NCBI GenBank assembly: GCA_964541075.1
Contig: CAZIPZ010000001.1
Location: 4,425 to 68,424, forward strand
Length of the DNA: 64,000 bases
Reading direction: 5' to 3'
Source: an uncultured Solibacteraceae bacterium
Lineage (GTDB): Bacteria > Acidobacteriota > Terriglobia > 20CM-2-55-15
The notes under the pieces are model-generated. The model ran no database searches. It was not told the DNA's origin and saw only the letters and a list, made by a program, of their open reading frames with translations. Shown here in pieces: positions 8,905-29,428 of the stretch. The position numbers were made by a program, and so were the translations under genes. Position 1 is the stretch's first letter. Every line of letters starts with the position of its first letter.

Positions 8905-9017
8905 TTCGTCAAGGGTGGCGCGTTTGCTTCCGGGGATTACGCCCTTGAACCAAACCGGTTCCGGAGATATCGTTGCCTCAGCTCAAAAGATCCGGCCCAG
9001 ATCTTAGGGGTGCAGGA

Positions 9018-12379: not shown

Positions 12380-14635
12380 ATGAACATGTTTGAATTCTTC
12401 TTCAAATACAACCCGATCATCTACGAAAGAGGACGGCTGGCGTTCCAGTTGGTCGGTTCACCCGCTTGGTTTGCACTTTTCGTTTTGGCCGCGGCAGTTG
12501 GCGCCTATTTCGCCTACCGGAATGTCGCCAGCGACAAATATTCCATCGGCTTGGTTGTTTTGCGCGCCATGACTTTCGCCATCCTCGCCTTTATTTTCCT
12601 AAGACCGGTGCTGAACATTTCGACCGTTCTGCCACAGGAAAGCTATATGGCGGTGGTGATCGATAACTCTGAAAGCATGAAGATTCGCGACGAGGGCGAG
12701 CAAACTCGCGCTGAACTCCTTCAAGCACAGTTGGAGTCCACGAATTTTTTCAAGCGGTTGTCGGATAAATTTCGTGTTCGGACGTATCGCTTTGATAGCG
12801 ATGCAGAGCGTATCGAGAGATTGGATCGGATGACTTACGAAGGTAAACGGACCAGACTCGAATCCGCAACGAACCTTCTTCAGCAGGAATTGGCATCCGT
12901 ACCACTGTCAGGCGTGGTTCTGATTACTGACGGGGTAGACAACGCATCGCAGCAGTGGGCGGACTCCCTAGCCAAACTCGAATCGCGCAGGATTCCTTTT
13001 TATACGGTCGGGGTTGGTTCTGAGCACATCACGCAAGATGCGGAAATTATCAAGGTCGCTGCTCCGCGGGACACCATGAAAGAGTCCACTGCGGTTATGG
13101 ACGTATCTTTCAGAAGTTTCGGATTTGCGGGCCGCAAAGCGACGCTATATGTGCGCGAGAACAATGTGCTGTTGAAATCGGAAGAGATAACGCTTCCGAA
13201 AGACGGTGAAATTTCCGAGAAGTCCCTGGACATCCCTTCGAACAACGAAGGTCTCCGAACCTTTTCTTTCTCCATCCAGGTTCAGGGCGATCGCATTCCT
13301 GAGAATAACAATCTGGACGCTCTCGTTCAGGTGAAGAACGATCATCCCCAGATCCTTTACATTGAAGGCGAGCCCCGCTGGGAGTTCAAATTCCTGCGTC
13401 GGGCGATGCAGGACGATCAGAATATTCATCTGGTGACCCTGTTGCGATCATCTCAAAACAAGTTCTACCGCCAGGGTATCGACAATGAGGAGATGCTTGC
13501 CGAAGGCTTCCCCAAAAAGCGGGAAGAGTTGTTCCGCTACAAAGGGCTGATTTTCGGAAGCATCGAGTCCACATTCTTCAGTCAGGACCAACTCAATATG
13601 GTGGTGGATTTCGTTAGCCAGCGAGGCGGTGGGTTCCTGATGACCGGCGGCCGGAATTCGTTCGGCGGCGGAAGATACCAGAACAGTCCGATCGCTGAGA
13701 TTCTGCCGGTCCAAATGGCGGCGGATGATCGTGTTCCAATCCTTGATCGCATCAAGGTCCTGCTTACGGACTACGGGCGGACCCATACCCTGATGAAGCT
13801 TTCCCCCGATGCCAGCGCCAATGTCAAGCAGTGGTCAGATATGCCGCCTCTTAACGACTTTAACAGGACGCTCGAGGCAAAAGTCGGCGGTATTGTTCTG
13901 GCGCGCGGTTCACCGGAACTAAAAACCAACGGTGATCCGATTCTCCTCGCCTACCAGCGCTATGGCCGGGGACGCACCATGGCGTTCACAAGCGGCAGCA
14001 GCTGGCGATGGCAAATGGAAATGGATCACGAGGACATGACCTACGAGCTTTTCTGGAAGCAGATCCTGCGCTGGCTCGTAAGCTCCTCCCCGGATCCTGT
14101 GATGGTCAATACCGATAAGGACACGTATCTGCCGGGCGAGCCTGTTCGGGTCTACGCAGAGGTTTCCGACAAGAGTTTCAATCGCATGAACAATGCTCGC
14201 GTTTTGGCGAAGATTACAAATCCAGCCGGAGTAACAGAATCCAGAGTGCTGGATTGGAGTGGAGCCCAGGATGGTGCGTATCGCAGTGAGATCAATGCCG
14301 GCGAGCCAGGTCTCTATCAAATTGAAGTCGATGCGGCTCAAGGCTCAGAAAATCTAGGTGTAAATCGAACAGCCTTTCAGGTGCAGGATCGACCAATCGA
14401 GTACTACAACGCCTCCTTGGATACGCGTCTGCTCCAGGGCGTGGCTGACGGCACGGGAGGCCGCTATTATCCGCTGTCGCGGATCGGCGAACTTCCCGAT
14501 GATGCGGTGTATGTTGAGGGAGAGACGTCTTTCGTAGAGCAAAAGGAGCTTTGGGATGTGCCATTCCTCTTTATGCTCCTCTGCATGACCTTGGGCGGCG
14601 AGTGGTTCTGGAGAAAGAAGAAGGGCCTAGCATGA
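12380..14635 (+). CDS. Membrane vWA-domain protein with GATase1-like domain (BatB-like), first gene of MoxR-vWA cluster
   Basis: N-terminal TM helices. vWA MIDAS (VVIDNSESM). Class-I glutamine-amidotransferase-like block GGGFLMTGGRNSFGGG. C-terminal TM plus KKKG. Confidence 0.7.
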   Translation: MNMFEFFFKYNPIIYERGRLAFQLVGSPAWFALFVLAAAVGAYFAYRNVASDKYSIGLVVLRAMTFAILAFIFLRPVLNISTVLPQESYMAVVIDNSESMKIRDEGEQTRAELLQAQLESTNFFKRLSDKFRVRTYRFDSDAERIERLDRMTYEGKRTRLESATNLLQQELASVPLSGVVLITDGVDNASQQWADSLAKLESRRIPFYTVGVGSEHITQDAEIIKVAAPRDTMKESTAVMDVSFRSFGFAGRKATLYVRENNVLLKSEEITLPKDGEISEKSLDIPSNNEGLRTFSFSIQVQGDRIPENNNLDALVQVKNDHPQILYIEGEPRWEFKFLRRAMQDDQNIHLVTLLRSSQNKFYRQGIDNEEMLAEGFPKKREELFRYKGLIFGSIESTFFSQDQLNMVVDFVSQRGGGFLMTGGRNSFGGGRYQNSPIAEILPVQMAADDRVPILDRIKVLLTDYGRTHTLMKLSPDASANVKQWSDMPPLNDFNRTLEAKVGGIVLARGSPELKTNGDPILLAYQRYGRGRTMAFTSGSSWRWQMEMDHEDMTYELFWKQILRWLVSSSPDPVMVNTDKDTYLPGEPVRVYAEVSDKSFNRMNNARVLAKITNPAGVTESRVLDWSGAQDGAYRSEINAGEPGLYQIEVDAAQGSENLGVNRTAFQVQDRPIEYYNASLDTRLLQGVADGTGGRYYPLSRIGELPDDAVYVEGETSFVEQKELWDVPFLFMLLCMTLGGEWFWRKKKGLA

Positions 14636-15564
14636 TTTCCAGATTGCTGCTCGTTTTATTCCTTCTATTCCCGGCGAAGGTTTGGGCCGATTCCTCAGCA
14701 CTGATTCTCACCGGCGTTGCGGGCGACCCGGAGCATGCTGAAAAGTTCACAAAGTGGACAGACAGCACCCGCAAGACTCTGGTCGAGAAATTCGATTTTT
14801 CGCCTGACCGGGTTGTCGCCCTTGTGGATAAGAAGGCGACTCGCGATGAGATTCGAAAAACCTTTGCGGCGCTGAAGAGTCAGCTGAAGCCCCTCGATAC
14901 CTTCTTCTTGTTTTTCATCGGTCACGGCAGCTACGAAGGCGACTACAAATTCAACATTAGCGGTCCCGACCTGACTGGCGCCGAATACGGCGAACTTTTG
15001 AACACGCTTAGCGTAGGGCGCATCGTCGTTGTCAACAGCACTAGCGCCAGTGGCGGCGTCATCGACAAGATGATGGGAAAGAATCGGATTGTCGTTACGG
15101 CCACACGCAGTGGTCAGGAAGGCAACGAGACGGTGTTCTATGAGCACTTCCTTGCCGCCCTGGAGGATCCTGCCAGCGATCAGGATAAGAACGGACAGAC
15201 CAGCGTGTGGGAAGCTTTCAAATATGCAACTGCCGCTGTGGAACGCTTTTACAAGGACGAAGGCCGCCTTGCGACGGAGCACGCCCAGATTTCCGACAAT
15301 GGCGCCGACAAAGTCGGATCCAATGTTCCAGAGCCACCGGCTTTGGCCCGCGCCATAGGGTTCCGGGTGGACCGCCAGGTTGCTTCGGGTGATCCCAAGG
15401 TCCAGGCGCTGCTGGCCGAAAAACGAGGAATCGAACAGAAGATTGAAGCCCTGCGGCTGATCAAAGACACCATGCTGGAAGAGCAATACCAAAAAGAAAT
15501 GGAAGAGCTGCTCGTCGACCTCGCGCTCAAGAACCAACAGATTCGCGCACTGGAGAAGAAATGA
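14632..15564 (+). CDS. Secreted legumain/C13-fold (caspase-hemoglobinase) protein with Ser replacing the catalytic Cys, and C-terminal coiled coil
   Basis: Signal peptide MISRLLLVLFLLFPAKVWA. Aligns block-wise with legumain: ALILTGVAG, FFLFFIGHGSYEG (the His block) and RIVVVNSTSASGG versus KMVFYIEACESGS (the Cys position carries Ser). ATGA overlap with the upstream stop. Confidence 0.55.
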   Translation: MISRLLLVLFLLFPAKVWADSSALILTGVAGDPEHAEKFTKWTDSTRKTLVEKFDFSPDRVVALVDKKATRDEIRKTFAALKSQLKPLDTFFLFFIGHGSYEGDYKFNISGPDLTGAEYGELLNTLSVGRIVVVNSTSASGGVIDKMMGKNRIVVTATRSGQEGNETVFYEHFLAALEDPASDQDKNGQTSVWEAFKYATAAVERFYKDEGRLATEHAQISDNGADKVGSNVPEPPALARAIGFRVDRQVASGDPKVQALLAEKRGIEQKIEALRLIKDTMLEEQYQKEMEELLVDLALKNQQIRALEKK

Positions 15565-18176
15565 AAAATCACTTCAGATTCAGTATCGCGATCCGGCGTT
15601 CTAGAAACCATCGTCCAGCACGGCGAATCCTGAATCCAGCTTCGGAAATTCCAAATCCAAAGCTGCTGGCGCTTCTACTGCTTCCATTCCTCCTCCTGAG
15701 CTGCGGCGCCTTATGGCAGACTGATGCCAACACCGCTGTCGAGATGGCGCGAACCGGCCAGTATAAAGAGGCGGCAGCCGTCCTTGAAGCTGCAGTGGCC
15801 AAGGGCAACGTCGAGCAACCAGTGGTCGAAGGGCTTTACTATTCGTGGATTCGTCAGGGCGAGTATGAGAAAACGCGCGAGCGTTTCGAGTCGTGGTCCA
15901 CGGAGTATGCGAAAGCGGGACCCATACGGCTCAGCGCAGCGCGCGTGAATCATATTGTGGGAAACCAAGATCGGGCGCTCACTCATCTGGAACCGATCCT
16001 CAGCTACTCAGACGTCGGCATCGCCGCCCAATTCGAGAAAGCCCAGGTTCTCGATGGTATGGGAAAGCGCGAGGACGCGAATGCGATCTATCAGAGGATG
16101 ATCACCGCTTTCCAAGACGGCATTATTCGCGCTCCTCGGGATTTGTTCTGGGTTGCGCGTGCAATGTGGGCGACTGAATATTTTCATGACGCTAACGATG
16201 TTTTCAAGATGGTTGCGGAAGCCGATCCACGAAACGCAGAACTCTTCGTCGCATGGGGTGATCTGCTCGCCGAAAAATATAACGAGCCTGAAGCGATTGC
16301 CAGCTACCAGGACGCTCTGAAGATCGATCCGAATATGCCCGAAGCACAGGTCGGGCTTGCGCGAACCTACTCCTTGTCCGATCCCGAGAAAGCATCGAAG
16401 GCGCTCGAAGCCGCTCTTCGCATTAATCCAAATTCCATCGATGGCAACCTATTGGTTGTGGAGCAGGACATCGACTCCGAGCAGTTTGATAAAGCCGTCG
16501 AGGACGTCAAGAAAGTGTTTGCCGTCAACCCGCAATCGATCGAAGCCTTGAGCCTCTTGGCCTCCATACATTTCCTGCGTGACAACAAGACAGAGTTCAA
16601 TAGCTATGTCGAACGGGTTCTTCAAGCGAATCCGCTTTACAGCGAACTCTTCTACACGCTTGCGGATAACTGCGTTTCCGTTCGACTGTACGACCAGGCC
16701 GTCACGTTCGCTCGCGAAGCCATTCGTTTGAATCCGCGCGATTGGAAGGCGATGAGTCTCTTGGGCGTCAACCTATTACGCCTCGGGCAGGAGACGGAAG
16801 GGAAGGCGATGCTCGAGAAGGCATACGAGGGAGACCCATTCAACGTCTGGAACGTGAATACCCTGAGGCTGCTCGGCAGCTTTCCGAAGTTCGACCGGTT
16901 TGAAACCCCGCATTTTCGAGTAATGCTCCACAAAAAGGAAAGCGCGGCGTTGCGTCCATACGTTACGGAGCTTCTCGAAAAAGCCCACAAGGTGCTCAGT
17001 GCAAAATACGAATTCACACCATCCGGTCCGATTGTCTTTGAAATGTATCCGGACCATGCGGACTTCGCTGTCCGCACCCTAGGGCTTCCGGGCATCGGCG
17101 CTCTGGGTGTTTGCTTCGGAAGGTTGTTCGTCATGGATTCGCCATCAGCACGAAAACCTGATGAATTCAATTGGGGAAGCACACTCTGGCATGAATTCGC
17201 ACACGTGATCACACTTCAGATTACGGATCACAAGGTTCCTCGCTGGTTTTCTGAAGGACTATCGGTTTTTGAAGAACGGAAGGCGTTCCCCGGTTGGGGA
17301 GATGATCTCAAGATCGAATATCTCGGCGCGATCAAGGGCAAGAAGCTCTTGCCTATAGCCGAGTTGAACAACGGATTCATAAGGCCGAAGTTTCCTGAGC
17401 AGGTTCTTGTTTCCTATTATCAGGCTTCGATCATTTGCGACTTCATTGAGAGTAAGTATGGCTTTGCTGCAATTCGCCAAATGCTCGCGCTGTACAAGGG
17501 GGGGAAGAATACGGCCGAGGTCTTCAAGGGCGCTCTGAACATTACGCTCGACCAATTTGACACGGACTTCTTCAAGTGGGTCGACGACAAGGTTCGCGGG
17601 ATAGAAATTCCGGTATTCACCAAGCTGATCAGCAGTGGACAAGAGCAGTTCGCGAAGGGTGACACAGATGCCGCAATCGAAACACTGAAGAGCGCCATCG
17701 AGATGTATCCGGAATATTCGGATGAGCACAATGCTTATGAGCCTCTTGCTGACGCCTATCTCAAAAAGGGTGACAAGCCGGCTGCCATCGAAGTCTTGAG
17801 AAAATTCTTGACCTATTCGGAAACGAGTTATCGGAGTTACTTGAAACTTGCGGAACTGCTCGAGGAAAAGGGCGATCTTCCGGGTGCCGTGCAGGCGCTT
17901 GAGGGATCCATTTACGTCAGGCCCCTGGACATGCAGGACCATCAAAAACTTGGCGATATCTTATTGACTCAAAAGCAGTGGAACGGGGCAGCGCGTGAAT
18001 TTGAAACACTGGTCGCACTAAACCCGCCGGACCGCGCTGGCGCGTACTATAGGCTGGCACAGGCATACCTTGGCCAAGGAAATAATCAGGAAGCTCGAAA
18101 GAACGTTCTTAAATCGCTGGAGATAGCTCCGTCATTCGAGCCGGCTCAGGAATTGTTATTAAAAATTGTGAGGTAA
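15561..18176 (+). CDS. TPR-repeat lipoprotein with embedded gluzincin-type metallopeptidase motif (peptidase MA-like)
   Basis: Lipobox LLLSC. Multiple TPR repeats in both halves. HEFAH...(17 aa)...E (WHEFAHVITLQITDHKVPRWFSEGLSVFEE) has gluzincin spacing. ATGA overlap with the upstream gene. Confidence 0.7.
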   Translation: MKNHFRFSIAIRRSRNHRPARRILNPASEIPNPKLLALLLLPFLLLSCGALWQTDANTAVEMARTGQYKEAAAVLEAAVAKGNVEQPVVEGLYYSWIRQGEYEKTRERFESWSTEYAKAGPIRLSAARVNHIVGNQDRALTHLEPILSYSDVGIAAQFEKAQVLDGMGKREDANAIYQRMITAFQDGIIRAPRDLFWVARAMWATEYFHDANDVFKMVAEADPRNAELFVAWGDLLAEKYNEPEAIASYQDALKIDPNMPEAQVGLARTYSLSDPEKASKALEAALRINPNSIDGNLLVVEQDIDSEQFDKAVEDVKKVFAVNPQSIEALSLLASIHFLRDNKTEFNSYVERVLQANPLYSELFYTLADNCVSVRLYDQAVTFAREAIRLNPRDWKAMSLLGVNLLRLGQETEGKAMLEKAYEGDPFNVWNVNTLRLLGSFPKFDRFETPHFRVMLHKKESAALRPYVTELLEKAHKVLSAKYEFTPSGPIVFEMYPDHADFAVRTLGLPGIGALGVCFGRLFVMDSPSARKPDEFNWGSTLWHEFAHVITLQITDHKVPRWFSEGLSVFEERKAFPGWGDDLKIEYLGAIKGKKLLPIAELNNGFIRPKFPEQVLVSYYQASIICDFIESKYGFAAIRQMLALYKGGKNTAEVFKGALNITLDQFDTDFFKWVDDKVRGIEIPVFTKLISSGQEQFAKGDTDAAIETLKSAIEMYPEYSDEHNAYEPLADAYLKKGDKPAAIEVLRKFLTYSETSYRSYLKLAELLEEKGDLPGAVQALEGSIYVRPLDMQDHQKLGDILLTQKQWNGAAREFETLVALNPPDRAGAYYRLAQAYLGQGNNQEARKNVLKSLEIAPSFEPAQELLLKIVR

Positions 18177-18178
18177 AA

Positions 18179-19204
18179 GTGGAACTTAGCGTGGAGCAAA
18201 AGAAAGAGCTCGAGATCGTCGAACGATTTCATATCGAATTAAAAAAGATCGACCACGAAATTCGGAAGGTGATCGTCGGCCAAAAGGAAGTTGTCGATCA
18301 GGTGATGATATCGATGCTGACGGGAGGGCACTCCATCATCACTGGAGTTCCTGGACTGGCCAAGACTCTTCTGATCGCCACCGTCGCCCAGGTGCTCCAT
18401 CTGAACTTCAAACGTATTCAGTTCACGCCTGATCTGATGCCGGCCGACATCACGGGCACGGAAATTATCGAAGAGGATCGCACGACCGGAAAGCGCATGC
18501 GCGTCTTCGTGAAGGGGCCGATTTTCGCGAACATTATTCTGGCGGACGAAATCAATCGAACGCCGCCGAAAACCCAATCAGCCCTTCTGGAAGCGATGCA
18601 AGAGGGGTCGGTATCCATTGAAGGAAACACTTATATTCTCGATAAGCCTTTCTACGTTCTGGCGACCCAGAACCCTATCGAATTGGAAGGAACGTATCCG
18701 CTCCCTGAAGCCCAATTGGATCGATTCATGTTCAACATTGTGATTGATTACCTTTCCGAGGATGAAGAGATACAGGTCGTCAGTCAGACCACATCAATCA
18801 GGTCCATTTCGTTCGAAAAGACGATCAGCGGTCCGGAGATCATTGAGTTTCAACAACTCGTTCGGCAGATGCCCGTGGCCGAGTCCGTCATGCGCTACGC
18901 CGTTCAATTGGCGAGAACCAGCCGCCCCGGTGCAGCAAGCCCACCTGACTTCGTTAAACAATATGTGAATTACGGCGCCAGCCTGCGGGCTTCCCAGTTC
19001 CTAATTCTTGGTGCAAAAGCTCGGGCGCTGATTCATGGACGTTACAACGTTGCCGTGGAAGACATTCAGGCGCTCGCCTATCCTGTGTTTCGCCATCGCA
19101 TCATCACGAATTTTCACGCGGAGTCGGAGGGTATCAAGTCTGAGGAAATTATCCGGAGGTTGATTGAATACGTTCCTGTTCCGAAATCCGGGATGAAGGA
19201 TTAA
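18179..19204 (+). CDS. MoxR-family AAA+ ATPase
   Basis: Walker A GVPGLAKT. Walker B and sensor ILADEINRTPPKTQSALLEAMQE. MoxR length, and sits upstream of a DUF58 gene. Confidence 0.92.
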   Translation: MELSVEQKKELEIVERFHIELKKIDHEIRKVIVGQKEVVDQVMISMLTGGHSIITGVPGLAKTLLIATVAQVLHLNFKRIQFTPDLMPADITGTEIIEEDRTTGKRMRVFVKGPIFANIILADEINRTPPKTQSALLEAMQEGSVSIEGNTYILDKPFYVLATQNPIELEGTYPLPEAQLDRFMFNIVIDYLSEDEEIQVVSQTTSIRSISFEKTISGPEIIEFQQLVRQMPVAESVMRYAVQLARTSRPGAASPPDFVKQYVNYGASLRASQFLILGAKARALIHGRYNVAVEDIQALAYPVFRHRIITNFHAESEGIKSEEIIRRLIEYVPVPKSGMKD

Positions 19205-19235
19205 GGGGTAAAGGAAGGACATTTTACACCCTACT

Positions 19236-20141
19236 ATGAGCACGGTTGAAAGGCCTTCGAATAGATTTATCGATCCAAAGGTTCTGATGAAGATCCAGAA
19301 CCTAGAGCTTGTCGCCCGTACGGTCGTTGAAGGCTTCGTTCAAGGACTGCACCGCTCGCCTTACCTCGGATTCAGCGTCGATTTCGCTGAATATAGGCAA
19401 TACATGCCTGGCGATGACCTGCGACGCATCGACTGGAACGTCTATGGCCGCTCCGACCGCCTCTATATCAAACTGTATGAGGGAGAAACCAATACTCGCG
19501 TTCTGATCCTGCTGGATATCAGTGGATCGATGAACTATGGCTCCGGCGAGGTCAGGAAGATCGACTACGCGCGGATTCTCGCAGCAACGCTGAGCTACTT
19601 TGCTTATCACCAGCGGGATGGAGTGGGTTTGCTCACTTTTGATACTGAGATTCGCGCGCACGTGCCTGCGAGCCGCCGTGCGGGCCAACTCCCGACGATT
19701 CTTGCCGAGATTGATCGTATTCAACCGTCTCAGCAGACGGAATTTCGCAAGCCGCTGAGGCATCTCGCGGAGTTTCTGACCCGCCGAGGCATGATTGTCG
19801 TCATTTCCGATTTGTACGATGAGCCCGACAGCATTATTTCCGGTCTGAAACAACTCAAGTCGAAGGGCAATGATCTGGTCGTTTTTCACGTCATGGATGA
19901 TTTCGAACTGACGTTCCCGTTTCAGGACACGGCGCAGTTTGAGGACCTGGAAACCAGAAAGAAGCTGCACGTCATTCCTGAGTATTTGCGCAAGCAGTAT
20001 CTGGAGATTCTGAACGACCACATGGATAAAGTCCGAAAGGGACTCACTGGGGCGCGTATCGACTATGTGTTGATGAATACCACAAGACCAATGGACGCAG
20101 GATTATTTGCCTATCTTGCAGCAAGAGCAAAAAGCCAATAG
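19236..20141 (+). CDS. DUF58 protein (vWA-like MoxR partner)
   Basis: DLRRIDWNVYGRSDRLYIKLYEGE motif and vWA-like LILLDISGSM. Canonical MoxR-DUF58 pairing. Confidence 0.88.
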   Translation: MSTVERPSNRFIDPKVLMKIQNLELVARTVVEGFVQGLHRSPYLGFSVDFAEYRQYMPGDDLRRIDWNVYGRSDRLYIKLYEGETNTRVLILLDISGSMNYGSGEVRKIDYARILAATLSYFAYHQRDGVGLLTFDTEIRAHVPASRRAGQLPTILAEIDRIQPSQQTEFRKPLRHLAEFLTRRGMIVVISDLYDEPDSIISGLKQLKSKGNDLVVFHVMDDFELTFPFQDTAQFEDLETRKKLHVIPEYLRKQYLEILNDHMDKVRKGLTGARIDYVLMNTTRPMDAGLFAYLAARAKSQ

Positions 20142-20219
20142 TCCAATGCCGAAACTAGTTGTCTGAGTTGAGATAGGCGCGACGAACGTGAACGCCCGAC
20201 ATCGCGCGACGACCAAATT

Positions 20220-22265
20220 ATGTCCTTTCTGAATCCATTCTTATTGTTCGGTGCGATCGCTCTGGCGATCCCGGTTCTGATCCACCTTGTCCGCAAGGAA
20301 AAGTCTGAGATCGTTCCATTCAGTTCGCTGATGTTCCTGCTCAAGGTGCCGAAGCGCGCAATCAGACAACAGAAGATCAAGAACCTTCTTTTGATGGCAT
20401 TACGACTCCTTATTCTCGCCTTGCTGGTCATGTCGTTTGCTCGACCTTATTTCACGCAAGAAACGGCAACGCCAGCCGCCGCAAATGAAATCCGCGGGAC
20501 CGTCTTGCTGTTGGATAACTCATACAGCATGCGGTACGGGACGAATTTCGACCGGCTCAAGAGTGAAGCCAAGAGGCGCATCGACGAAATGGGCGCCGGC
20601 GATCGAATGGCAATTGTCTCGTTTAACGAGAGCGCGACGATGTTGTCCATGCCGAGTTCAGACAAGAACGCGCTGAGAGCCGCGGTCGATACGCTGGAGC
20701 CGTCTTTTGGTTCGACGCGTTATTACGAAGCTTTCACTCTGGCCGATCGCGCCCTCACGGAGTTGGCAAGCACCGACAAGAAACTCGTCATCATTTCCGA
20801 TTTTCAGAAAAATGGTTGGAATCGCTCCGGCAGAGAAAACGTGATCGGCTCCGAAGTCAAAACAGAGTCCGTCAATCTCTCAGTCGAAAACTCGACGAAT
20901 GTAGGAATCGACAACGTGAGTGTGGATCCGACCAGCTTCACGCGAATTTATAGCGGGAGGGTGATCGCCCGCGTTCACAACTACCGCAAGGATCAGGGAG
21001 TGGACGTTCCTGTCTCCGTCAGTATCAACGGCCGCGAGGCCGGCCGTAAAACTGTCAACGTTCCGCCCGGCTCTACTGCGCTTGCGGAGTTCACGGGATT
21101 TGACCTTCCTTTGGGTTCTTCCAAAGGAGCGGTGAAGTTGCAGACAACCGATCCCCTCAAAGTGGATGATGAATTCCTTTTTACTCTCGATCGGAGAGAG
21201 AAGCTGAACGTGCTGATCCTGGATGCGGGGCGCGCCCGACAAAGCTTCTTCCTGAGGCAGGCCTACTCTTCTTCTGCAGAACTGCCATTTGAACTCAAGG
21301 TGATGTCCGCCCAGTCTGTCTCACCTGATGATGTTGTGAATTATCAGGTTGTGGTGCTGAACGACGTTCCTCGACTTCCGGATAAAGTGAAGGACAAACT
21401 GGAGGAACTCCGAAAGACAGGTCAGGGGCAGTTGATTATTCTTGGTGAGGGGACGGATGTCGGTTGGTGGAACTCCTTTCAGGCATTGCCGGTGAAGGTG
21501 GTTCAGAAGATTTTCGTGCCGAAGGACAGGGGACAGCCGGCTGTTTCCCTGACCAGCTACGATCGCAATCACGCGATCTTCAAACCTTTCGAACAGAGCA
21601 CAAAGCTCGTTCTGAACACTGCGCAGTTCTTCGCGTATGTCGAGATGCAACCGAAGGATGGTGCGGCGACGCTGGCGAAATATGAGAATGGCAATGCAGC
21701 AATCGTCGAATCCTCTCAGGAAAATCGAGGCATCCTCGTGTTCGACTCGACAGTGGATAACCGGTGGAACGACCTTCCCTTGAAGCCGTCATTTCTCCCG
21801 CTTTTCCATGAAATGGTGCGCTACCTCTCACGATACAGCGAAACCCGTGGATGGTACGCTATGGGCGAAGGAATTCCGGTGATGGGAGGCTTGGAAAGTG
21901 CAGCTGCGGCAGTCATCAATCCGAAAGGGGAGCGCCAGTCGCTGGGAGAACTTACGGTCGGGCAACAGCGGTTTTTTACGCCTGCGGATCCAGGATTCTA
22001 TGAGATTCGCGTCGGGCCGGATGCCAAGACGCTGGCTGTTAATGCACCGTCATCGGAAGGCGATCTGCAGTCAATGCCTCCCGAAGATCTTCTGGCCAGC
22101 GTTCAACGCACTCAGGGTGAAAGCCAGAGGGCCGGATTTTTTGGTCAGGACGAGCAAGAGGACTACGGGCGACGACAGATGGGGTGGTGGTATCTCCTAT
22201 TATTTGCTTTGTTGGCGGGTATCGCAGAGATATATATAGCCAACAGAGCGCATAAGGTGTCGTGA
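20220..22265 (+). CDS. BatA-like protein: aerotolerance-regulator N-terminal TM domain plus vWA domain plus C-terminal TM
   Basis: MSFLNPFLLFGAIALAIPVLIHL (BatA_N). MIDAS LLLDNSYSM. C-terminal WWYLLLFALLAGIAEIYIA anchor. Confidence 0.8.
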   Translation: MSFLNPFLLFGAIALAIPVLIHLVRKEKSEIVPFSSLMFLLKVPKRAIRQQKIKNLLLMALRLLILALLVMSFARPYFTQETATPAAANEIRGTVLLLDNSYSMRYGTNFDRLKSEAKRRIDEMGAGDRMAIVSFNESATMLSMPSSDKNALRAAVDTLEPSFGSTRYYEAFTLADRALTELASTDKKLVIISDFQKNGWNRSGRENVIGSEVKTESVNLSVENSTNVGIDNVSVDPTSFTRIYSGRVIARVHNYRKDQGVDVPVSVSINGREAGRKTVNVPPGSTALAEFTGFDLPLGSSKGAVKLQTTDPLKVDDEFLFTLDRREKLNVLILDAGRARQSFFLRQAYSSSAELPFELKVMSAQSVSPDDVVNYQVVVLNDVPRLPDKVKDKLEELRKTGQGQLIILGEGTDVGWWNSFQALPVKVVQKIFVPKDRGQPAVSLTSYDRNHAIFKPFEQSTKLVLNTAQFFAYVEMQPKDGAATLAKYENGNAAIVESSQENRGILVFDSTVDNRWNDLPLKPSFLPLFHEMVRYLSRYSETRGWYAMGEGIPVMGGLESAAAAVINPKGERQSLGELTVGQQRFFTPADPGFYEIRVGPDAKTLAVNAPSSEGDLQSMPPEDLLASVQRTQGESQRAGFFGQDEQEDYGRRQMGWWYLLLFALLAGIAEIYIANRAHKVS

Positions 22266-22341: not shown

Positions 22342-25300
22342 ATGAGACCAAACGATGAACTGCTTCAAAAGATCGGAATTGTAAGGAGTCGATGGAAGGC
22401 ATTCCTTTGGGCTCGTGGGCTTGCCTGGGTTCTCGGCGTTCTGGCCGGATGCGTCCTTGCAGCTGTTGCCATCGCCAATTCGCCGGAATTTCCAGGTTGG
22501 GCTGTTCTGGGTCTAAGAATCGGTTTGCTGGCCGCCGTTGTATTTACAATTGTCCGAGCCCTTGTCATTCCGTTGCGGCGCACCCCGAGCGACACCCAGC
22601 TAGCCCGGTTTGTGGAGGAGAAGAATCCCGGTCTCAAGGATCGTCTCGTCAGCGCTGTTGAAGCTGTAAAAAAGCCAGGAGCGGATCAGAGTCCCTTCGT
22701 TCACCTGCTGACGAAGGACGCGCTTGAACACACACGCCATGTGCGTTTCGCCGAGCAAGTGAACAAGCGCAAGTTCGGCGCATTCGCAACATTGAGCGGC
22801 TTTTTTGCTGTAGCTTTGGTGATTAGTCTTTATATCGCCTCTTTATTTTTTCCTATCGGCAGCGCCCGTCTGCTGGCTGGCCTGTTGAAGCCGCCGGATG
22901 TTGATACGTTTCAATTGAAGGTTGCTCCAGGAGATATCACCGTCCCTCGCGGAAGCGACGTGGTGATTCAAGCCGTAGCGAGCGGATTTGATCCTCAACG
23001 CGCACAGATCCAACTGCGCTATGCGAATGGGGATCAATGGGAAGCTTCGACAATGGAGATTACGCCGCAGACCCTTCCGACCTTCCGTCATACAGTGTTT
23101 AATTTGCAGGAATCGGTTCACTATTTCGTTGAAGCCGACGGACATAGATCGACGGAATTCACGATTGATGTGGCGGACCTCCCGCGGGTCGAGAAACTCG
23201 ACTACACATACACGTATCCCGCGTACGCGGGAATGGCGCCCAACAAACAGGAAAATGCGACGGACATGGTTGCGCTGCGAGGCACATCCGTAGAGGTTCA
23301 AGTCACGGCAAGTCAGGAGCTATCCGGAGGCCGCCTGGTGTTTTCAGATGGGAAGACGGTTCCTCTACAGCCCAATGGGGAAAAAATGGCAATGGGCAAG
23401 CTGGTTGTGGACCGTAGCGCCACTTTCAGAATCGAACTGACGAATAAGGACGGACAAAGATATCTGAGTCTCGAAGAGTACACGATGGATGCGCTGGACG
23501 ATCAGAAGCCAATCGTCGAGTTCACCAAGCCTGGAAGGGATTACAAGGCCACCAGCGTTGAGGAAGTCTTCACCGAACTGCGCGCTGAGGATGATTTTGG
23601 CGTCCATCAACTCGAGCTTTACTTTTCGGTAAATGGCGGCGCCGAGCAGAAGAAATCGCTCTTCAGCAACAAAGGTGAAGCTCCGAAGGAAATTTCAGGC
23701 GGGCACACGTTTTTCCTAGAGGAATACGACCTCAAGCCGGGCGACTTCATCACTTACTACGGCAAAGCTGTCGATTCACGCCAACCTTCAAATACTGTCT
23801 CGACGGACATCTACTTCGTTGAAGTGCGGCCATTCGGTCACGAGTACTACCAGGGGCAGCAAGGTGGAGGAGGCGGCGGCGGACAGCAGGATGATTCGAC
23901 GGAGGCGCTGTCCAAACGCCAAAAGGACATCATTGCAGCGACGTTCAAGCTCATGCGCGATAAAGACAAGTTCAAGACAAAGGAGTGGACTGACAACATT
24001 CATGCGGTCGGCGCCAGCCAGTCCAAACTTGCCGAACAGACTGAGACCTTAATGGCCCGCCTTGGACGCCGGGGCTTGACGGCGCAGAACAAGAAATTTA
24101 CAGATCTTTCAGAAAACCTCAAGCTTGCCATTGAACAGATGGGTCCGGCTTCGGAACAGTTGCAGAAAGAGCAGGCCGAGGCGGCCATGCCTTTCGAGCA
24201 GAAGGCGCTTCAATATCTCATGCGCGCTGAGGCCCTTTTCACAGAAATCCAGGTCACGATGGGACAGCAGGGCGGTGGAGGAGGAGGCGGCGGCCGTCAG
24301 AATGCCGAGGACCTTGCCGACCTGTTCGAACTCGAACTTGATCAGAGCAAGAACCAGTACGAAACGCTGCAGCGCGGCGAAATGTCGCAAAACCCTCAGG
24401 AACTCGAGGACTCGCTGCGAAAACTGAAAGAATTGGCCGAACGTCAACAAAAGTTGATGGAGCGCCGCGCTCAACAGCAAGCAAGCGGCGGCAGCGGCGG
24501 GGGCGGCGATCAATCACAGATGCAGGAACTGCAGCGTGAAACCGAGCGCTTAGCTCGCCAGCTCGAGAAGCTGTCTCGCGAGAATAACAATCGTCAAATG
24601 GCGGATGTGAGCCGTGCGCTGCAACAGGCTGCTCGCAACATGCAACAGCAGGCGCAGGGCGGCAGCGGTAATTCTCAGCAGCAGCAACAGGCCGCCCAGC
24701 AAGCGATGGAGCAACTGCAGCGCGCCCAACGACTTCTCAATCAGGGACGGGGCGGCAATGTTGATGAACGCATGGCTCAGCTGCAGCAACAGATGAAAAA
24801 TCTGAAGGAGAAGCAGGGCCGAATCGCCGATCAGACTGAAAAGCTCGCAAGTCAGGAGAAGCCCGGGCCGCAGCCCAGCCCTGAAGGCAAGGAAAAGATA
24901 GATGAAATAGGGCAGCAGAAGCAGCAGGTCGCGTCCGAACTCAAGAACATGACCGAGGAACTTGATTCACTCGGAAATAATCCTGAAAATCGTGATGCTG
25001 CCAATAAGGCTAGAAGCGCTGCCAACGCAATCAAGTCTAGCCGGCTGCAAGACAAGATGAGCCAAAGTGGACAGTTTCTGGAAAACGGTTTCTACAACTA
25101 CGCGTCCCGAGCTGAGCGCGATATCGAGAAGACGCTGGGCGACATTGAGAAACAGATCAATCAGGCCGCTTCTGCCGCCAACGATTCCGACGAAAAGCGA
25201 ACCCAAAACGCGTTGAACCAGACCAGCGAGACGATCCGACGCCTGGAGTCGATGCAGCGACGGCTGCAGCAGTACAACCAGCAAAACAATCAGCAAAACA

Positions 25301-25926
25301 ATCAGCAAAACAATCAGCAAAACAATCAGCAAAACAATCAGCAGGACAATCAACAGGGTCAGAACCAACAGGGCCAGCAGGCCCAGGGCAACCAACAAGG
25401 GCAACGTCCTTCTCAGCAAGGCCAGCCTGGTCAACAGCAAGCCCAGGACGGGCAGCAGGGACAGCCGGGTCAATCCGGAAACGGGCAGGAGAATGCCAGG
25501 GGCCAGCAGGTTGGTCGGAATGGATTCCCATATGGCGGCGCCCGCGCGGGAGTCGAAGCGGGGCAAGGTCCTGACGTCAACGATGCACGGCAATGGCAGC
25601 GCGAATGGGAAGAGCGACTGCGGGAAATCCAGGAGATCCGACAAGCTGTGGGCAAAGATAAGGAACTTGCGGCGGACCTCGACCGAATTATGAACGCTGT
25701 TAGAGGCCAAATGCGCGGTCGGCCAGGAAATCCGGAAGAAATCCAAAGGCTGGCTCAGCAGATTATCGACCCGTTCCGATCGGTTGAACTTGAATTGAGC
25801 CGGGAGCTTCAGCTCTTGATGGCGAAGGAAAATATTCGGTCGGCGCAGGAAGAAGAAATTCCCGAGAGATACAAGAAGCTGGTCGAGGAATATTACAAGC
25901 GTCTGTCGAGTCAGAAGCCGCAATAA
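22342..25926 (+). CDS. Large (1194 aa) membrane-anchored protein with Q/G-rich low-complexity coiled-coil region, last gene of MoxR-vWA cluster
   Basis: Two or three N-terminal TM helices. Poly-Gly tracts (GGGGGGGQQ twice). Long Q/E-rich coiled-coil segments. The QQNNQ tandem repeat falls inside it. Possibly BatD/DUF4175-like, which I cannot verify. Confidence 0.6.
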   Translation: MRPNDELLQKIGIVRSRWKAFLWARGLAWVLGVLAGCVLAAVAIANSPEFPGWAVLGLRIGLLAAVVFTIVRALVIPLRRTPSDTQLARFVEEKNPGLKDRLVSAVEAVKKPGADQSPFVHLLTKDALEHTRHVRFAEQVNKRKFGAFATLSGFFAVALVISLYIASLFFPIGSARLLAGLLKPPDVDTFQLKVAPGDITVPRGSDVVIQAVASGFDPQRAQIQLRYANGDQWEASTMEITPQTLPTFRHTVFNLQESVHYFVEADGHRSTEFTIDVADLPRVEKLDYTYTYPAYAGMAPNKQENATDMVALRGTSVEVQVTASQELSGGRLVFSDGKTVPLQPNGEKMAMGKLVVDRSATFRIELTNKDGQRYLSLEEYTMDALDDQKPIVEFTKPGRDYKATSVEEVFTELRAEDDFGVHQLELYFSVNGGAEQKKSLFSNKGEAPKEISGGHTFFLEEYDLKPGDFITYYGKAVDSRQPSNTVSTDIYFVEVRPFGHEYYQGQQGGGGGGGQQDDSTEALSKRQKDIIAATFKLMRDKDKFKTKEWTDNIHAVGASQSKLAEQTETLMARLGRRGLTAQNKKFTDLSENLKLAIEQMGPASEQLQKEQAEAAMPFEQKALQYLMRAEALFTEIQVTMGQQGGGGGGGGRQNAEDLADLFELELDQSKNQYETLQRGEMSQNPQELEDSLRKLKELAERQQKLMERRAQQQASGGSGGGGDQSQMQELQRETERLARQLEKLSRENNNRQMADVSRALQQAARNMQQQAQGGSGNSQQQQQAAQQAMEQLQRAQRLLNQGRGGNVDERMAQLQQQMKNLKEKQGRIADQTEKLASQEKPGPQPSPEGKEKIDEIGQQKQQVASELKNMTEELDSLGNNPENRDAANKARSAANAIKSSRLQDKMSQSGQFLENGFYNYASRAERDIEKTLGDIEKQINQAASAANDSDEKRTQNALNQTSETIRRLESMQRRLQQYNQQNNQQNNQQNNQQNNQQNNQQDNQQGQNQQGQQAQGNQQGQRPSQQGQPGQQQAQDGQQGQPGQSGNGQENARGQQVGRNGFPYGGARAGVEAGQGPDVNDARQWQREWEERLREIQEIRQAVGKDKELAADLDRIMNAVRGQMRGRPGNPEEIQRLAQQIIDPFRSVELELSRELQLLMAKENIRSAQEEEIPERYKKLVEEYYKRLSSQKPQ
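25279..25350 (+). repeat. In-frame 12-bp tandem repeat (CAGCAAAACAAT x5 perfect plus degenerate flanking copies) encoding (QQNN)n
   Basis: Read directly from the sequence at 25279-25338 (perfect copies) and 25339-25350 (degenerate copy). Lies inside the 1194-aa ORF. Confidence 0.9.
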
Positions 25927-25933
25927 TTAGGAC

Positions 25934-25958
25934 GCTCCCCTTCATTGCGGAGGGGAGC
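25934..25958. terminator. GC-rich hairpin (GCTCCCCT ... AGGGGAGC) between convergent genes
   Basis: 8-bp perfect stem and 9-nt loop in the 37-bp gap between the big-protein stop and the glyA stop. A likely bidirectional terminator, but no strong U-tract. Confidence 0.4.
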
Positions 25959-25963
25959 ACACC

Positions 25964-27208
25964 CTAATACAGTGGGAATTTTTCGCAGAGGTTTTCTACT
26001 TCTCGCTTCACTCGCTTTTGAACGTTCTCATCCTGAATTGCATCGAGTACGTCCGCAACCCAGTCTCCAATAGCTTCCATCTCCCCTTCCTTCATGCCGC
26101 GCGTGGTTAAAGCGGGCGTTCCCAGGCGGATGCCGCTAGGCGTCATGGGAGAGTTGACGTCGAATGGAATCGTATTCTTGTTCACCGTGATTCCGGCTTT
26201 GTCCAGTGCTTGCTCGGCTTCTTTGCCGTTGATGCCCTTTGAAAAGACATCGACCAGCATCAGATGAGTGTCCGTACCGCCCGAGACGATCCGAAATCCT
26301 CGATCTGCGATCCTGGCCGCCAGCGCTTTGGCGTTCCTGACAACTTGGCGAATATAAGAGCGAAACTCATCACTCCCGGCTTCTTTGAAGCAAACCGCCT
26401 TTGCTGCGATAACGTGTTCCAACGGTCCGCCTTGCATTTCAGGAAAAACGGAACGATTGAGGTCCTTCGCGAAAGACTCGCGGCACATGATCATGCCGCT
26501 CCGCGGCCCCCGGAGCGTCTTGTGGGTGGTGCTTGTCACAAACTCGGCATGACTCACAGGCGACGGATGTTCGCCGGCCGCAACCAGGCCTGCTATGTGT
26601 GCAATATCCACCATCATCAGAGCGCCAGTTTCCTTCGCGATCTTCGCGATGCGCGGAAAGTCGATGATCCGCGGGTACGCGCTGGCGCCGGCCACGATGA
26701 GCCGCGGCTTATGCTGATTCGCGAGTTTGGACAATTCCTCATAGTCAATTACTTCAGAATCCTTGTGTACTCCGTACGGCACAATGCGATAGTACTTTCC
26801 GGAGAAGTTGAGCGGATGGCCGTGAGTGAGATGTCCCCCATGAGAAAGATTCATGCCCAGGACGGTATCGCCTGGCTTGAGAAGAGTAAGGTAGACAGCC
26901 ATGTTCGCCTGGCTTCCCGAATGAGGTTGAACATTCACATGTTCGGCGCCAAAGAGTTTCTTGGCTCGCTCGATCGCGAGGCTTTCCACGACGTCAACGA
27001 ACTCGCAACCGCCGTAGTACCTGCGACCTGGGTACCCCTCGGCATACTTGTTCGTAAGCACCGAACCTGTAGCTTCAAGAACTGCTTTGTAAGTGAAATT
27101 TTCCGAGGCGATGAGTTCCAGTCCGGTTGATTGGCGGCGCTCTTCGTTTTTGATGGCAGCTGCAATTTCAGGATCTAAATCTTTAAGCGGCGCATTAAGG
27201 CGGTCCAT
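25964..27208 (-). CDS. glyA: Serine hydroxymethyltransferase
   Basis: [38 protein letters not shown] and the PLP-Lys region [14 protein letters not shown]. Confidence 0.95.
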
Positions 27209-27271
27209 CGATCCCTCCCGAGGAGCTTGGGAAAAAATTCACTCTACCACGCTGTGTTATAATCCCGCACC

Positions 27272-27622
27272 ATGTTTGGCCTGAACGGCAGACAGCTCTT
27301 CATTCTTCTGCTGTTTGTCGCCCTGCTGTTCGCGGGCTCGCAGTACATCCCGCCCTATTTCAATGCATTCCAGTTCAATGATTTCGTTCGGCAGGAAGTG
27401 AAGTATGCCGTCAGCGCACGCAAGACCACGGATGATGTTCGAAATGCAATCGTCAAGAAGGCGGCGGAGTTGAATCTTCCCATCACTCCGAAGGATGTTC
27501 GCATCATACGCCGTGGGCCTTCATTTACAGTTGAGCTGGAATACCGCGTGCCCGTCGATATTAAGGTCTACAAACAAGACCTGGTTTTCCGCGCGTCCGA
27601 GTCCGGAGAAGTCTTTGAATAA
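27272..27622 (+). CDS. Hypothetical small membrane protein (116 aa)
   Basis: Single N-terminal TM helix. Stop overlaps the moeA start. Confidence 0.45.
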   Translation: MFGLNGRQLFILLLFVALLFAGSQYIPPYFNAFQFNDFVRQEVKYAVSARKTTDDVRNAIVKKAAELNLPITPKDVRIIRRGPSFTVELEYRVPVDIKVYKQDLVFRASESGEVFE

Positions 27623-29328: not shown

Positions 29329-29428
29329 GAGCTAGACGGCCCGCAGGGCCGATTGGGTCGCTAATCACAGCATTCGGCGGCGGAGATTTGATATTGTTGA
29401 ATGTGGACCGCCGAACAATACTCCAATC

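What the first reader, a model, noticed from the sequence alone, without database searches (positions are those of the whole stretch)
25279..25350. Perfect in-frame 12-bp tandem repeat (CAGCAAAACAAT x5) inside the giant Q-rich protein
Five perfect and at least two degenerate copies encode a (QQNN)n tract within a longer Q/G/P-rich low-complexity region (QGQNQQGQQAQGNQQGQRPSQQGQPGQQ...). Perfect nucleotide identity between units implies recent expansion or ongoing slipped-strand variation. Because the unit is 12 bp, changes in copy number keep the frame, so this looks like a length-variable surface or periplasmic spacer rather than an on/off phase switch. The same protein has two GGGGGGG(G)QQ tracts (about 23870-23890 and 24268-24300).
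Basis: seen in the sequence. Interest (0 to 1): 0.5.

Follow-up and report, generated by a model that had tools for sequence, protein, structure and literature searches.

The report
Slippage-prone repeat in a disordered linker
A real, recently expanded 12-base repeat encodes (Gln-Gln-Asn-Asn)x5 in a floppy Gln/Gly-rich linker of a membrane protein of unknown function; relatives vary in length at the same site, so it is an ordinary coding repeat.

Summary
CAGCAAAACAAT occurs five times without a mismatch at 25279-25338. Degenerate copies flank it at 25267-25278 (3 mismatches) and 25339-25350 (2 mismatches). It lies in frame in ORF 22342-25926 (+, 1194 aa).

The protein is a DUF4175 (PF13779) family member and the last gene of a conserved seven-gene MoxR / DUF58 / BatA-VWA operon. 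The closest relatives are Acidobacteriota of the order Bryobacterales.

The repeat sits at the start of a roughly 95-residue disordered Q/G/N-rich linker, between a long helical region and a C-terminal helical bundle.

All 96 homologues examined carry a linker at this position:
- Its length runs from 45 to 230 aa and accounts for most of the family's length variation.
- Within clusters of at least 90% identity, 13 of 21 internal indels fall in the linker and 6 more in poly-Gly loops.
- Two near-identical strains (1 mismatch in 9.4 kb) differ only by a 57-bp linker indel and one Gly codon.
- The closest full-length relative varies in copy number of a different 15-bp unit at the same site.

The best explanation is replication slippage in a length-tolerant linker. 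The copy number of this particular array could not be compared, because no conspecific sequence exists in the collections. There is no evidence of adaptive switching. Interest is low.

The parts
25279..25338 (+). Five perfect copies of CAGCAAAACAAT, encoding (QQNN)5, aa 980-999 of the protein
   Evidence: The perfect period-12 run is 65 nt. 0 of 20,000 codon shuffles reach it.
25267..25278 (+). Degenerate 5' copy CAGCAGTACAAC (QQYN), 3 mismatches
25339..25350 (+). Degenerate 3' copy CAGCAGGACAAT (QQDN), 2 mismatches
25264..25578 (+). Q/G/N-rich low-complexity linker, about aa 975-1079. It is predicted disordered (pLDDT about 30 for aa 986-1079) and has 54 Q+N in the best 80-aa window. The part 3' of the QQNN array is a decayed QQG-type repeat.
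   Evidence: AF2; composition; alignment of 96 homologues; period-9 QQG arrays at the same site in the four closest genomes
22342..25926 (+). DUF4175-family gene (1194 aa). Predicted layout: 3 TM helices (aa 3-45, 52-79, 142-169), three beta-sandwich domains (190-496), a helical region (522-985) interrupted by poly-Gly loops, the disordered linker, and a C-terminal helical bundle (1079-1190).
   Evidence: Pfam PF13779, 39.3 bits against a cut-off of 27.3; AF2 mean pLDDT 81; hydropathy and charge; 638 homologues at E<=1e-10
23863..23883 (+). Poly-Gly tract 1 (G7, aa 508-514), a disordered loop. It varies by +/-1 Gly among close relatives of other lineages.
24271..24294 (+). Poly-Gly tract 2 (G8, aa 644-651), a disordered loop. 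It varies by +/-1 Gly in one cluster.
24496..24507 (+). Poly-Gly tract 3 (G4 within SGGSGGGGD, aa 719-722), a disordered loop. It varies by 1-2 residues in two clusters.
12380..22265 (+). The six upstream genes of the same operon: VWA+GATase1_like+MG2 (12380-14635), a 337-aa protein (14551-15564), TPR+Peptidase_MA (15561-18176), MoxR AAA_3 ATPase (18179-19204), DUF58 (19236-20141), BatA_N+VWA (20220-22265)
   Evidence: Pfam and NCBIfam. The same order is found in relatives L005 and L014.

Best explanation
The 12-bp array is a young tandem duplication produced by replication slippage (strand misalignment). It lies at the 5' edge of a conserved, intrinsically disordered Gln/Gly-rich linker.

The linker joins the helical body of a membrane-anchored, probably periplasmic DUF4175 protein to its C-terminal helical bundle. 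The protein is encoded by the last gene of a MoxR / DUF58 / BatA-VWA operon. Such operons have been linked to envelope integrity and stress tolerance in other bacteria.

The linker is kept in every family member for its composition and flexibility, not for a particular sequence or length. In-frame expansions and contractions are therefore tolerated and accumulate much faster than point substitutions. Each lineage ends up with its own repeat unit: QQNN here, QQQNQ in the closest full-length relative, and QQG or QGQ types elsewhere.

Shown: the repeat, its frame, its DNA-level origin, the predicted disorder, conservation of the site, and strain-level length polymorphism at the homologous site in other lineages.

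Inferred: slippage as the mechanism, the periplasmic location, the tether role, and near-neutrality of length changes.
For: - Perfect DNA identity including synonymous sites: P = 6.7e-5 given the protein, and 0 of 20,000 codon shuffles match it.
- Perfect copies lie in the interior and decayed copies at both edges, as expected of an array homogenised by slippage.
- The single strand has no predicted hairpin, with MFE 0. Simple misalignment is enough to explain the array.
- AF2 gives aa 986-1079 a pLDDT of about 30, flanked by confident helices.
- All 96 homologues have a linker here. Its length is 45-230 aa (SD 42), against SD 12 for the rest of the protein. Mean composition is Q 31% and G 25%.
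- In ten clusters of at least 90% identity, 13 of 21 internal indel sites lie in the linker and 6 in poly-Gly loops. The binomial probabilities are P = 4e-9 for the linker alone and 2e-16 for both together.
- L005 and L007 differ by 1 mismatch in 9.4 kb. Their only two indels are both in this gene: 57 bp in the linker and one GGT codon in a poly-Gly tract.
- P0001 and P0123 differ by two units of CAGCAGCAGAATCAG at exactly the homologous position.
- The four closest genomes have QQG arrays of 100-280 bp here. Perfect runs of 44-62 nt with periods 15, 18 and 27 occur in relatives.
- Operon order is conserved.
Against: - No second copy of this species' locus was found, so variation of this particular array is not observed.
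- Some of the compared sequences come from metagenome assemblies, where repeats can be collapsed or mis-assembled. The 57-bp case appears to come from long-read contigs, judging by their names, which makes an artefact less likely but does not exclude it.
- Neutrality is not demonstrated.
- The Asn-rich unit is unusual for the family. Asn is 17% of the linker here, against a family mean of 5%. That could reflect something other than drift.
Confidence: 0.75

Rival explanations
1. Adaptive length tuning, a contingency-like locus. On this view, slippage is exploited to generate subpopulations whose C-terminal domain sits on a tether of different reach. This would adjust how the MoxR/VWA envelope complex contacts a partner across the periplasm. 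It is essentially the first reader's 'length-variable spacer'.
For: - The unit is in frame.
- The homologous site is polymorphic between near-identical strains.
- Indels are concentrated in this linker and in the poly-Gly hinges.
- The topology places the region outside the cytoplasm.
Against: - A 45-230 aa spread with no preferred length across 96 homologues is what relaxed constraint predicts.
- A disordered chain sets distance only weakly.
- The 20 repeat residues are under a fifth of the linker.
- There is no evidence of within-population heterogeneity.
- The known function-tuning repeats I can recall sit in surface proteins under host or phage pressure. That setting is not shown here.
Confidence: 0.12
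2. A functional Q/N-rich 'prion-like' or self-associating domain. On this view, the Q/N tract drives reversible self-assembly (condensate, gel or amyloid-like contacts) of the protein, and copy number sets the assembly threshold.
For: - 54 of 80 residues are Q or N in the best window. That is well above the figure of 30 per 80 used in the census of Q/N-rich regions, which I recall from memory as Michelitsch and Weissman 2000.
- Asn enrichment is specific to this genome.
- The profile search against solved structures matches the linker only to polyQ/huntingtin and Snf5 low-complexity chains.
Against: - Most family members have G-rich, N-poor linkers (mean N 5%, G 25%), and Gly-rich composition disfavours ordered assembly.
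- Nothing shows self-association.
- The matches are driven by composition.
- The predicted compartment is the periplasm.
Confidence: 0.05
3. An assembly or sequencing artefact. On this view, the five perfect copies, or their number, come from mis-assembly rather than from the genome.
For: - Repeats are classic sites of assembly error.
- The closest short-read-derived relatives (P0004, P0007, P0008 and others) all stop before the linker.
- Several assemblies carry frameshifts inside the linker or a poly-Gly tract.
Against: - The array is 84 nt including its degenerate copies, shorter than a typical read.
- It has unique flanks.
- It keeps the reading frame through to a conserved C-terminal domain.
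- Comparable arrays occur at the same place in every relative.
Confidence: 0.05

Closest known systems
DUF4175 (Pfam PF13779) and the distantly related alphaproteobacterial TIGR02302 'aProt_lowcomp' family
   Same: - Large membrane-anchored protein with N-terminal TM helices and a long extracytoplasmic region containing Gln/Gly-rich low-complexity sequence.
- The Pfam hit is above the curated cut-off.
- The NCBIfam model name itself records the low complexity.
- It is encoded next to MoxR / DUF58 / double-TM VWA genes.
   Different: - There is no TIGR02302 hit for this protein. One family member reaches only 22 bits against a cut-off of 394.
- The QQNN unit and the high Asn content are unique among the 96 homologues examined.
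- Function is unknown for both families, and no relative has a solved structure.
Bat (Bacteroides aerotolerance)-type MoxR / DUF58 / BatA-VWA / TPR operons, including Rhizobium leguminosarum RL3499-RL3502
   Same: - The gene set is MoxR AAA_3 ATPase, DUF58, a BatA N-terminal double-TM + VWA protein and a TPR protein.
- Published mutants in such operons affect aerotolerance, stress tolerance, or envelope integrity and cell morphology (PMC5700661, which cites Tang 1999 and Vanderlinde 2011; PMC3893208).
   Different: - No BatD domain was detected.
- This operon additionally has a Peptidase_MA fusion, a GATase1_like/MG2 VWA protein, a possible caspase-like protein and the DUF4175 protein.
- No function has been tested in Acidobacteriota.
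- I could not read Vanderlinde 2011 to check whether RL3502 is the DUF4175 or TIGR02302 homologue.
In-frame coding tandem repeats (VNTR-type) and simple-sequence contingency loci of bacteria
   Same: - Perfect head-to-tail DNA units inside a gene.
- The expected slippage mechanism.
- Copy-number differences between close strains at the homologous site.
   Different: - The unit is a multiple of three, so there is no frameshift switch.
- The protein is not shown to be surface exposed or under host or phage selection.
- Within-population variation has not been observed.
Gln-rich or Pro-rich flexible periplasmic linkers such as those of FtsN, TolA and TonB (from my own knowledge, not tested here)
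   Same: An inner-membrane anchor followed by a disordered, uncharged or low-complexity segment that tethers a folded C-terminal domain.
   Different: - There is no sequence or fold relationship.
- The partner of the C-terminal bundle is unknown.
- It is unknown whether the bundle is free or packs back on the helical body.

Membership tests
DUF4175 (PF13779) | Match to the Pfam model above its gathering score | tested here: met
   39.3 bits against a cut-off of 27.3, E 2.9e-10, aa 284-440. Many homologues carry a precomputed PF13779 hit.
DUF4175 (PF13779) | N-terminal transmembrane helices with a large extracytoplasmic C-terminal region | tested here: met
   Hydropathy peaks at about aa 20-48, 50-80 and 144-178. 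K+R counts are 6, 0 and 14 in the N-terminus, loop 1 and loop 2. AF2 helices are at 3-45, 52-79 and 142-169. The orientation is inferred from the positive-inside rule.
DUF4175 (PF13779) | Gln/Gly-rich low-complexity segment before the C-terminal domain | tested here: met
   Present in 96 of 96 aligned homologues, 45-230 aa long, Q 31% and G 25% on average.
TIGR02302 (aProt_lowcomp) | Match to the NCBIfam model above its cut-off (394 bits) | tested here: not met
   No hit for the window protein even at E<=10. Relative P0080 scores 22 bits.
Bat-type MoxR/VWA operon | Adjacent MoxR (AAA_3) ATPase, DUF58 protein and BatA_N+VWA protein on one strand | tested here: met
   AAA_3 E 2e-60, DUF58 E 5e-47, BatA E 1e-18 plus VWA_2. 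TIGR02226 double-TM domain. The order is conserved in L005 and L014.
Bat-type MoxR/VWA operon | BatD-type protein and an aerotolerance or envelope phenotype | not testable with these tools
   No BatD domain appears among the Pfam hits of the operon proteins. A phenotype needs genetics.
Phase-variable simple-sequence contingency locus | Repeat unit that shifts the reading frame or alters a promoter, giving on/off expression | tested here: not met
   The unit is 12 bp = 4 codons and in frame. There is no promoter-like site in 25000-26100.
Length-variable in-frame coding tandem repeat (VNTR type) | DNA-level identical units whose length is a multiple of three | tested here: met
   Five identical 12-mers. 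Same-codon probability is 6.7e-5. 0 of 20,000 shuffles match.
Length-variable in-frame coding tandem repeat (VNTR type) | Copy number differs among strains of the same species | tested here: inconclusive
   No conspecific sequence was found for this array. At the homologous site in other lineages the feature is met: a 30-bp indel of two units, a 57-bp indel between near-identical strains, and multi-allelic clusters.
Q/N-rich prion-like domain | At least 30 Q+N in 80 consecutive residues (criterion recalled from Michelitsch and Weissman 2000) | tested here: met
   54 of 80, starting at aa 977.
Q/N-rich prion-like domain | Self-propagating aggregation | not testable with these tools
   Needs experiment. 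The family linkers are mostly Gly-rich and Asn-poor.

The most novel reading that the evidence does not exclude
The linker and the poly-Gly hinges of DUF4175 proteins could be evolved mutational hot spots. In-frame slippage, and occasional frameshifts that cut off the C-terminal bundle, would then generate heritable variants of a MoxR/VWA envelope machine within a population. The Asn-rich QQNN expansion would also add self-association (prion-like or condensate) behaviour in the periplasm.
Probability: 0.06. Interest if true: 0.55.

Novelty: new member of a known kind. Interest (0 to 1): 0.2.

Why it matters
In itself it matters little. It is one more in-frame coding repeat in a disordered linker.

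Its modest value lies in three points:
- It marks a well-defined, conserved hypervariable site in a widespread protein family of unknown function. In near-identical strains of one relative, length changes at this site outnumber substitutions.
- Such sites could serve as strain-typing markers. They are also known trouble spots for short-read assembly and for gene calling.
- The domain map produced here could guide experiments on DUF4175 proteins and on the poorly understood MoxR / DUF58 / BatA operons. The map is TM anchor, three beta-sandwich domains, helical body with Gly hinges, disordered linker and C-terminal bundle.

Tried and rejected
- Exact-protein look-up to find the source contig or other strains: nothing on record.
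- Protein search: the best full-length relative is 66% identical, and the partial relatives (73-76%) all stop before the linker. No strain comparison of this array was possible.
- Genome-collection scan: four loci at 70-74% identity, namely Ca. Sulfopaludibacter and 'gp5' Acidobacteria MAGs. None is conspecific.
- Metagenome scan for two repeat units (a 24-mer): five hits. All are unrelated low-GC organisms (31-38% GC) that share only the Q/N repeat and have no flank homology. I rejected them as convergent low complexity.
- Fold search of the AF2 model against the PDB: only generic tandem Ig-like or macroglobulin-type matches to the beta-sandwich region.
- Profile search against PDB sequences: only designed coiled coils and polyQ chains.
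- Defence-system models (PADLOC): no meaningful hit for the operon.
- Rfam and a promoter/terminator scan of the region on both strands: nothing above noise.
- DNA folding of the array: no structure.
- Literature: 'DUF4175' occurs in four papers. Among those, the only bacterial work, a published paper and its preprint, concerns A. baumannii AdvA, which shares only the N-terminal TM part. The key Rhizobium paper, PMC3133104, is not held.
- I considered the antisense ORF 24967-25923 (318 aa) as an alternative gene. I set it aside because the + frame is conserved across hundreds of homologues. I did not test it separately.
- I could not obtain model coordinates. Whether the C-terminal bundle packs against the helical body, making the segment a loop rather than a tether, remains untested.
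Full report
**1. The observation**

The window carries CAGCAAAACAAT five times without a mismatch at 25279-25338. One degenerate copy lies on each side: 25267-25278 (CAGCAGTACAAC, 3 mismatches) and 25339-25350 (CAGCAGGACAAT, 2 mismatches). The following 12-mers have 7 mismatches and are not copies. Tandem Repeats Finder reports 25274-25352, period 12, 6.6 copies, 95% matches, score 137. It is the only strong tandem repeat in the 64 kb; the next best score is 53.

The array is in frame in ORF 22342-25926 (+, 1194 aa) and reads QQYN-(QQNN)5-QQDN.

Two tests show that it exceeds what the biased composition would give:
- Shuffling the codons of the low-complexity segment 20,000 times gave a longest perfect tandem run of 36 nt, against 65 nt observed.
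- Given the protein sequence and the gene's own codon usage, the chance that all five units use the same synonymous codons is 6.7e-5.

The repeat therefore arose by duplication of DNA, not by selection for an amino-acid pattern. The perfect copies are interior and the decayed ones lie at the edges, as expected of an array homogenised by slippage.

A third, shorter tract lies at 24496-24507.

**2. The gene and its neighbourhood**

The protein matches Pfam DUF4175 above the curated cut-off (39.3 against 27.3 bits). It is the last gene of a co-directional, tightly spaced set:
- VWA + GATase1_like + MG2 (12380-14635)
- a 337-aa protein (14551-15564)
- TPR + Peptidase_MA (15561-18176)
- MoxR-type AAA_3 ATPase (18179-19204)
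- DUF58 (19236-20141)
- BatA N-terminal double-TM domain + VWA (20220-22265)
- DUF4175 (22342-25926)

A convergent serine hydroxymethyltransferase gene follows, then molybdenum-cofactor genes. Exactly the same order, including the downstream genes, is found in two relatives (L005 and L014).

The closest genomes are MAGs of Candidatus Sulfopaludibacter and 'gp5' Acidobacteria, at 70-74% amino-acid identity. They belong to Acidobacteriota, Terriglobia, Bryobacterales.

MoxR / DUF58 / BatA-VWA / TPR operons are known as 'Bat' (Bacteroides aerotolerance)-like operons. Published mutants affect aerotolerance, stress tolerance, or envelope integrity and cell shape, but the molecular function remains open (PMC5700661, PMC3893208).

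**3. Architecture of the protein**

An AlphaFold2 model built on 96 homologues (mean pLDDT 81) gives:
- helices 3-45, 52-79 and 142-169, which coincide with the three hydropathy peaks;
- three beta-sandwich domains (190-496);
- a helical region (522-985) interrupted by low-confidence loops at the three poly-Gly tracts (505-516, 646-649, 717-721);
- a segment 986-1079 with pLDDT of about 30;
- a confident C-terminal helical bundle (1079-1190).

The charge distribution is 6 K+R in the N-terminus, 0 in the first loop and 14 in the 77-148 loop. By the positive-inside rule this places the large C-terminal part outside the cytoplasm. That placement is an inference.

(QQNN)5 is aa 980-999. It sits at the end of the last long helix and the start of the disordered linker.

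No relative has a solved structure. Foldseek finds only generic tandem Ig-like and macroglobulin-type matches. A profile search finds only designed coiled coils and polyQ chains.

**4. The linker across the family**

I measured the segment between the conserved '...RRLESMQRRL' motif and the conserved start of the C-terminal bundle in 96 homologues of 34-64% identity.
- The segment is always present.
- Its length is 45-230 aa (median 111.5, SD 42), whereas the rest of the protein has SD 12.
- Average composition is Q 31%, G 25%, N 5%.
- The window's linker is 107 aa, a typical length. It has the highest Asn content of the set (17%) and is the only one with (QQNN) in two or more copies.

At the DNA level:
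- The four closest genomes carry period-9 (QQG)n arrays of 100-280 bp at the same site.
- Perfect tandem runs of 44-62 nt with periods 15, 18 and 27 occur in relatives.

The site is therefore a conserved place where different repeat units arise and decay independently in each lineage. The QQNN array is the current one in this genome, lying 5' of a decayed QQG-type tract.

**5. Does the length really vary between close relatives?**

For this array the question cannot be answered:
- The exact protein is not on record.
- The best full-length relative is 66% identical.
- The closest partial sequences stop before the linker.
- A metagenome scan for two repeat units found only unrelated low-GC organisms with convergent Q/N tracts.

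For the homologous site in other lineages the answer is yes.
- I aligned the full-length members of ten clusters of at least 90% identity and found 21 internal indel sites. Thirteen lie in the linker, 6 in the poly-Gly tracts and 2 elsewhere. The linker makes up about 9% of the protein and the two classes together about 11.5%. The binomial probabilities are 4e-9 and 2e-16.
- Two contigs from different samples (L005, L007) differ by one mismatch in 9.4 kb. Their only two indels are both inside this gene: a 57-bp indel in the linker and one GGT codon in the first poly-Gly tract.
- In the closest full-length relative, P0001 and P0123 (93 mismatches in 3.6 kb) differ by exactly two units of the 15-bp repeat CAGCAGCAGAATCAG (QQQNQ). 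These lie immediately after the same conserved motif where QQNN begins here.

A caveat applies: these are metagenome assemblies. Several cluster members and P0009 carry frameshifts inside the linker or a poly-Gly tract. I cannot tell whether those are sequencing errors or real truncations.

**6. Most likely mechanism**

The best-supported reading is replication slippage within a length-tolerant, composition-constrained disordered linker.
- The single strand has no predicted hairpin, with MFE 0. Simple misalignment of 12-nt units suffices.
- The unit is four codons long, so every gain or loss stays in frame and the C-terminal bundle is retained.
- Persistence of a Q/G-rich linker over deep divergence argues that a flexible, uncharged connection is needed.
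- The 45-230 aa spread argues that its exact length is not.

I put this explanation at about 0.75.

The rivals are adaptive tuning of tether reach (0.12), a self-associating Q/N-rich domain (0.05) and an assembly artefact (0.05). The Q/N reading rests on 54 Q+N in 80 residues, but the family is mostly Gly-rich and Asn-poor. Against an artefact, the array is shorter than a read and the frame and downstream domain are intact. The region has no promoter-like site, no excess of terminator-like sites and no Rfam match above noise on either strand. The operon has no meaningful match to defence-system models.

**7. Comparison with what is known**

The protein is a member of DUF4175. It is not a member of the alphaproteobacterial TIGR02302 family 'aProt_lowcomp' (no hit). 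One relative does match that model weakly, and the model's name shows that low-complexity sequence is a recognised trait of this wider group.

The repeat behaves like an in-frame coding VNTR. It fails the defining test of an on/off contingency locus, because its unit is a multiple of three and no promoter is involved.

The arrangement of membrane anchor, disordered Gln-rich segment and folded C-terminal domain resembles periplasmic tethers such as FtsN, TolA and TonB. I state that from my own knowledge; no homology was tested.

**8. Verdict**

The 'spacer' role and 'active variation' of this array are not demonstrated. It is a new instance of a known kind of feature, and interest is low (0.2). 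The most useful by-product is the finding that DUF4175 proteins carry a conserved hypervariable linker and Gly hinges that change faster than point substitutions accumulate.

Noticed in passing
window 14551-15564 (+): A 337-aa operon protein with no strong family. It has weak hits to caspase-type cysteine peptidases: PADLOC 'caspase' E 1.4e-6 over aa 87-129, and Pfam Peptidase_C13 E 0.0027, below its cut-off. It is conserved in position in relatives, at 329-344 aa with no Pfam hit on record.
   Followed up: partly
window 12380-14635 (+) and 15561-18176 (+): Two unusual partners in a MoxR/DUF58/BatA operon: a VWA + GATase1_like + MG2 (macroglobulin-like) protein, and a TPR protein fused to a Peptidase_MA domain. 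The DUF4175 beta-sandwich region also matched bacterial alpha-2-macroglobulin and complement C3 in Foldseek, though only as generic Ig-like folds.
   Followed up: no
window 23863-23883, 24271-24294, 24496-24507: Three poly-Gly tracts form low-confidence loops between folded parts. The equivalent tracts gain or lose 1-2 Gly codons between relatives of at least 90% identity, including a +GGT change between two contigs that differ by one mismatch in 9.4 kb.
   Followed up: yes
P0009, P0130, P0147, P0174, P0178 (homologues); the equivalent of window about 24490-25580: Five homologues from other assemblies are frameshifted inside the linker or a poly-Gly tract and lose the C-terminal bundle. P0009, for example, reads ...QQANRANKVSRANRANRASRV.... 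Whether this is sequencing error or real truncation is unknown.
   Followed up: partly
P0004, P0007, P0008, P0011, P0013, P0018, P0021: The closest relatives by identity (66-76%) are all partial proteins from a short-read catalogue. They end 30-170 residues before the linker. This is consistent with assemblies breaking at or near the repeat-rich 3' part of the gene.
   Followed up: no
L008-L012 (metagenome contigs): The same 24-mer (two QQNN units with identical codons) occurs in five unrelated low-GC organisms (31-38% GC) inside other Q/N-rich coding tracts. This looks like convergent low complexity, not homology.
   Followed up: yes
window 24967-25923 (-): A 318-aa antisense ORF lies entirely within the 3' part of the DUF4175 gene. 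It is probably a by-product of the CAG/CAA-rich sense strand. I did not test it.
   Followed up: no
window 25964-29929; L005 and L014: The order DUF4175 gene, convergent SHMT, small ORF, MoeA, MoaC, MoCF_biosynth is shared by the window and both relatives. In L005 and L014 it continues into NADH dehydrogenase subunits, although the DUF4175 proteins are only 57-66% identical to the window's. That part was not annotated in the window.
   Followed up: partly
window 8973-10250 (+): A 425-aa protein with a PilX N-terminal domain (E 1.3e-6) lies upstream of the operon. It is unrelated to the finding.
   Followed up: no
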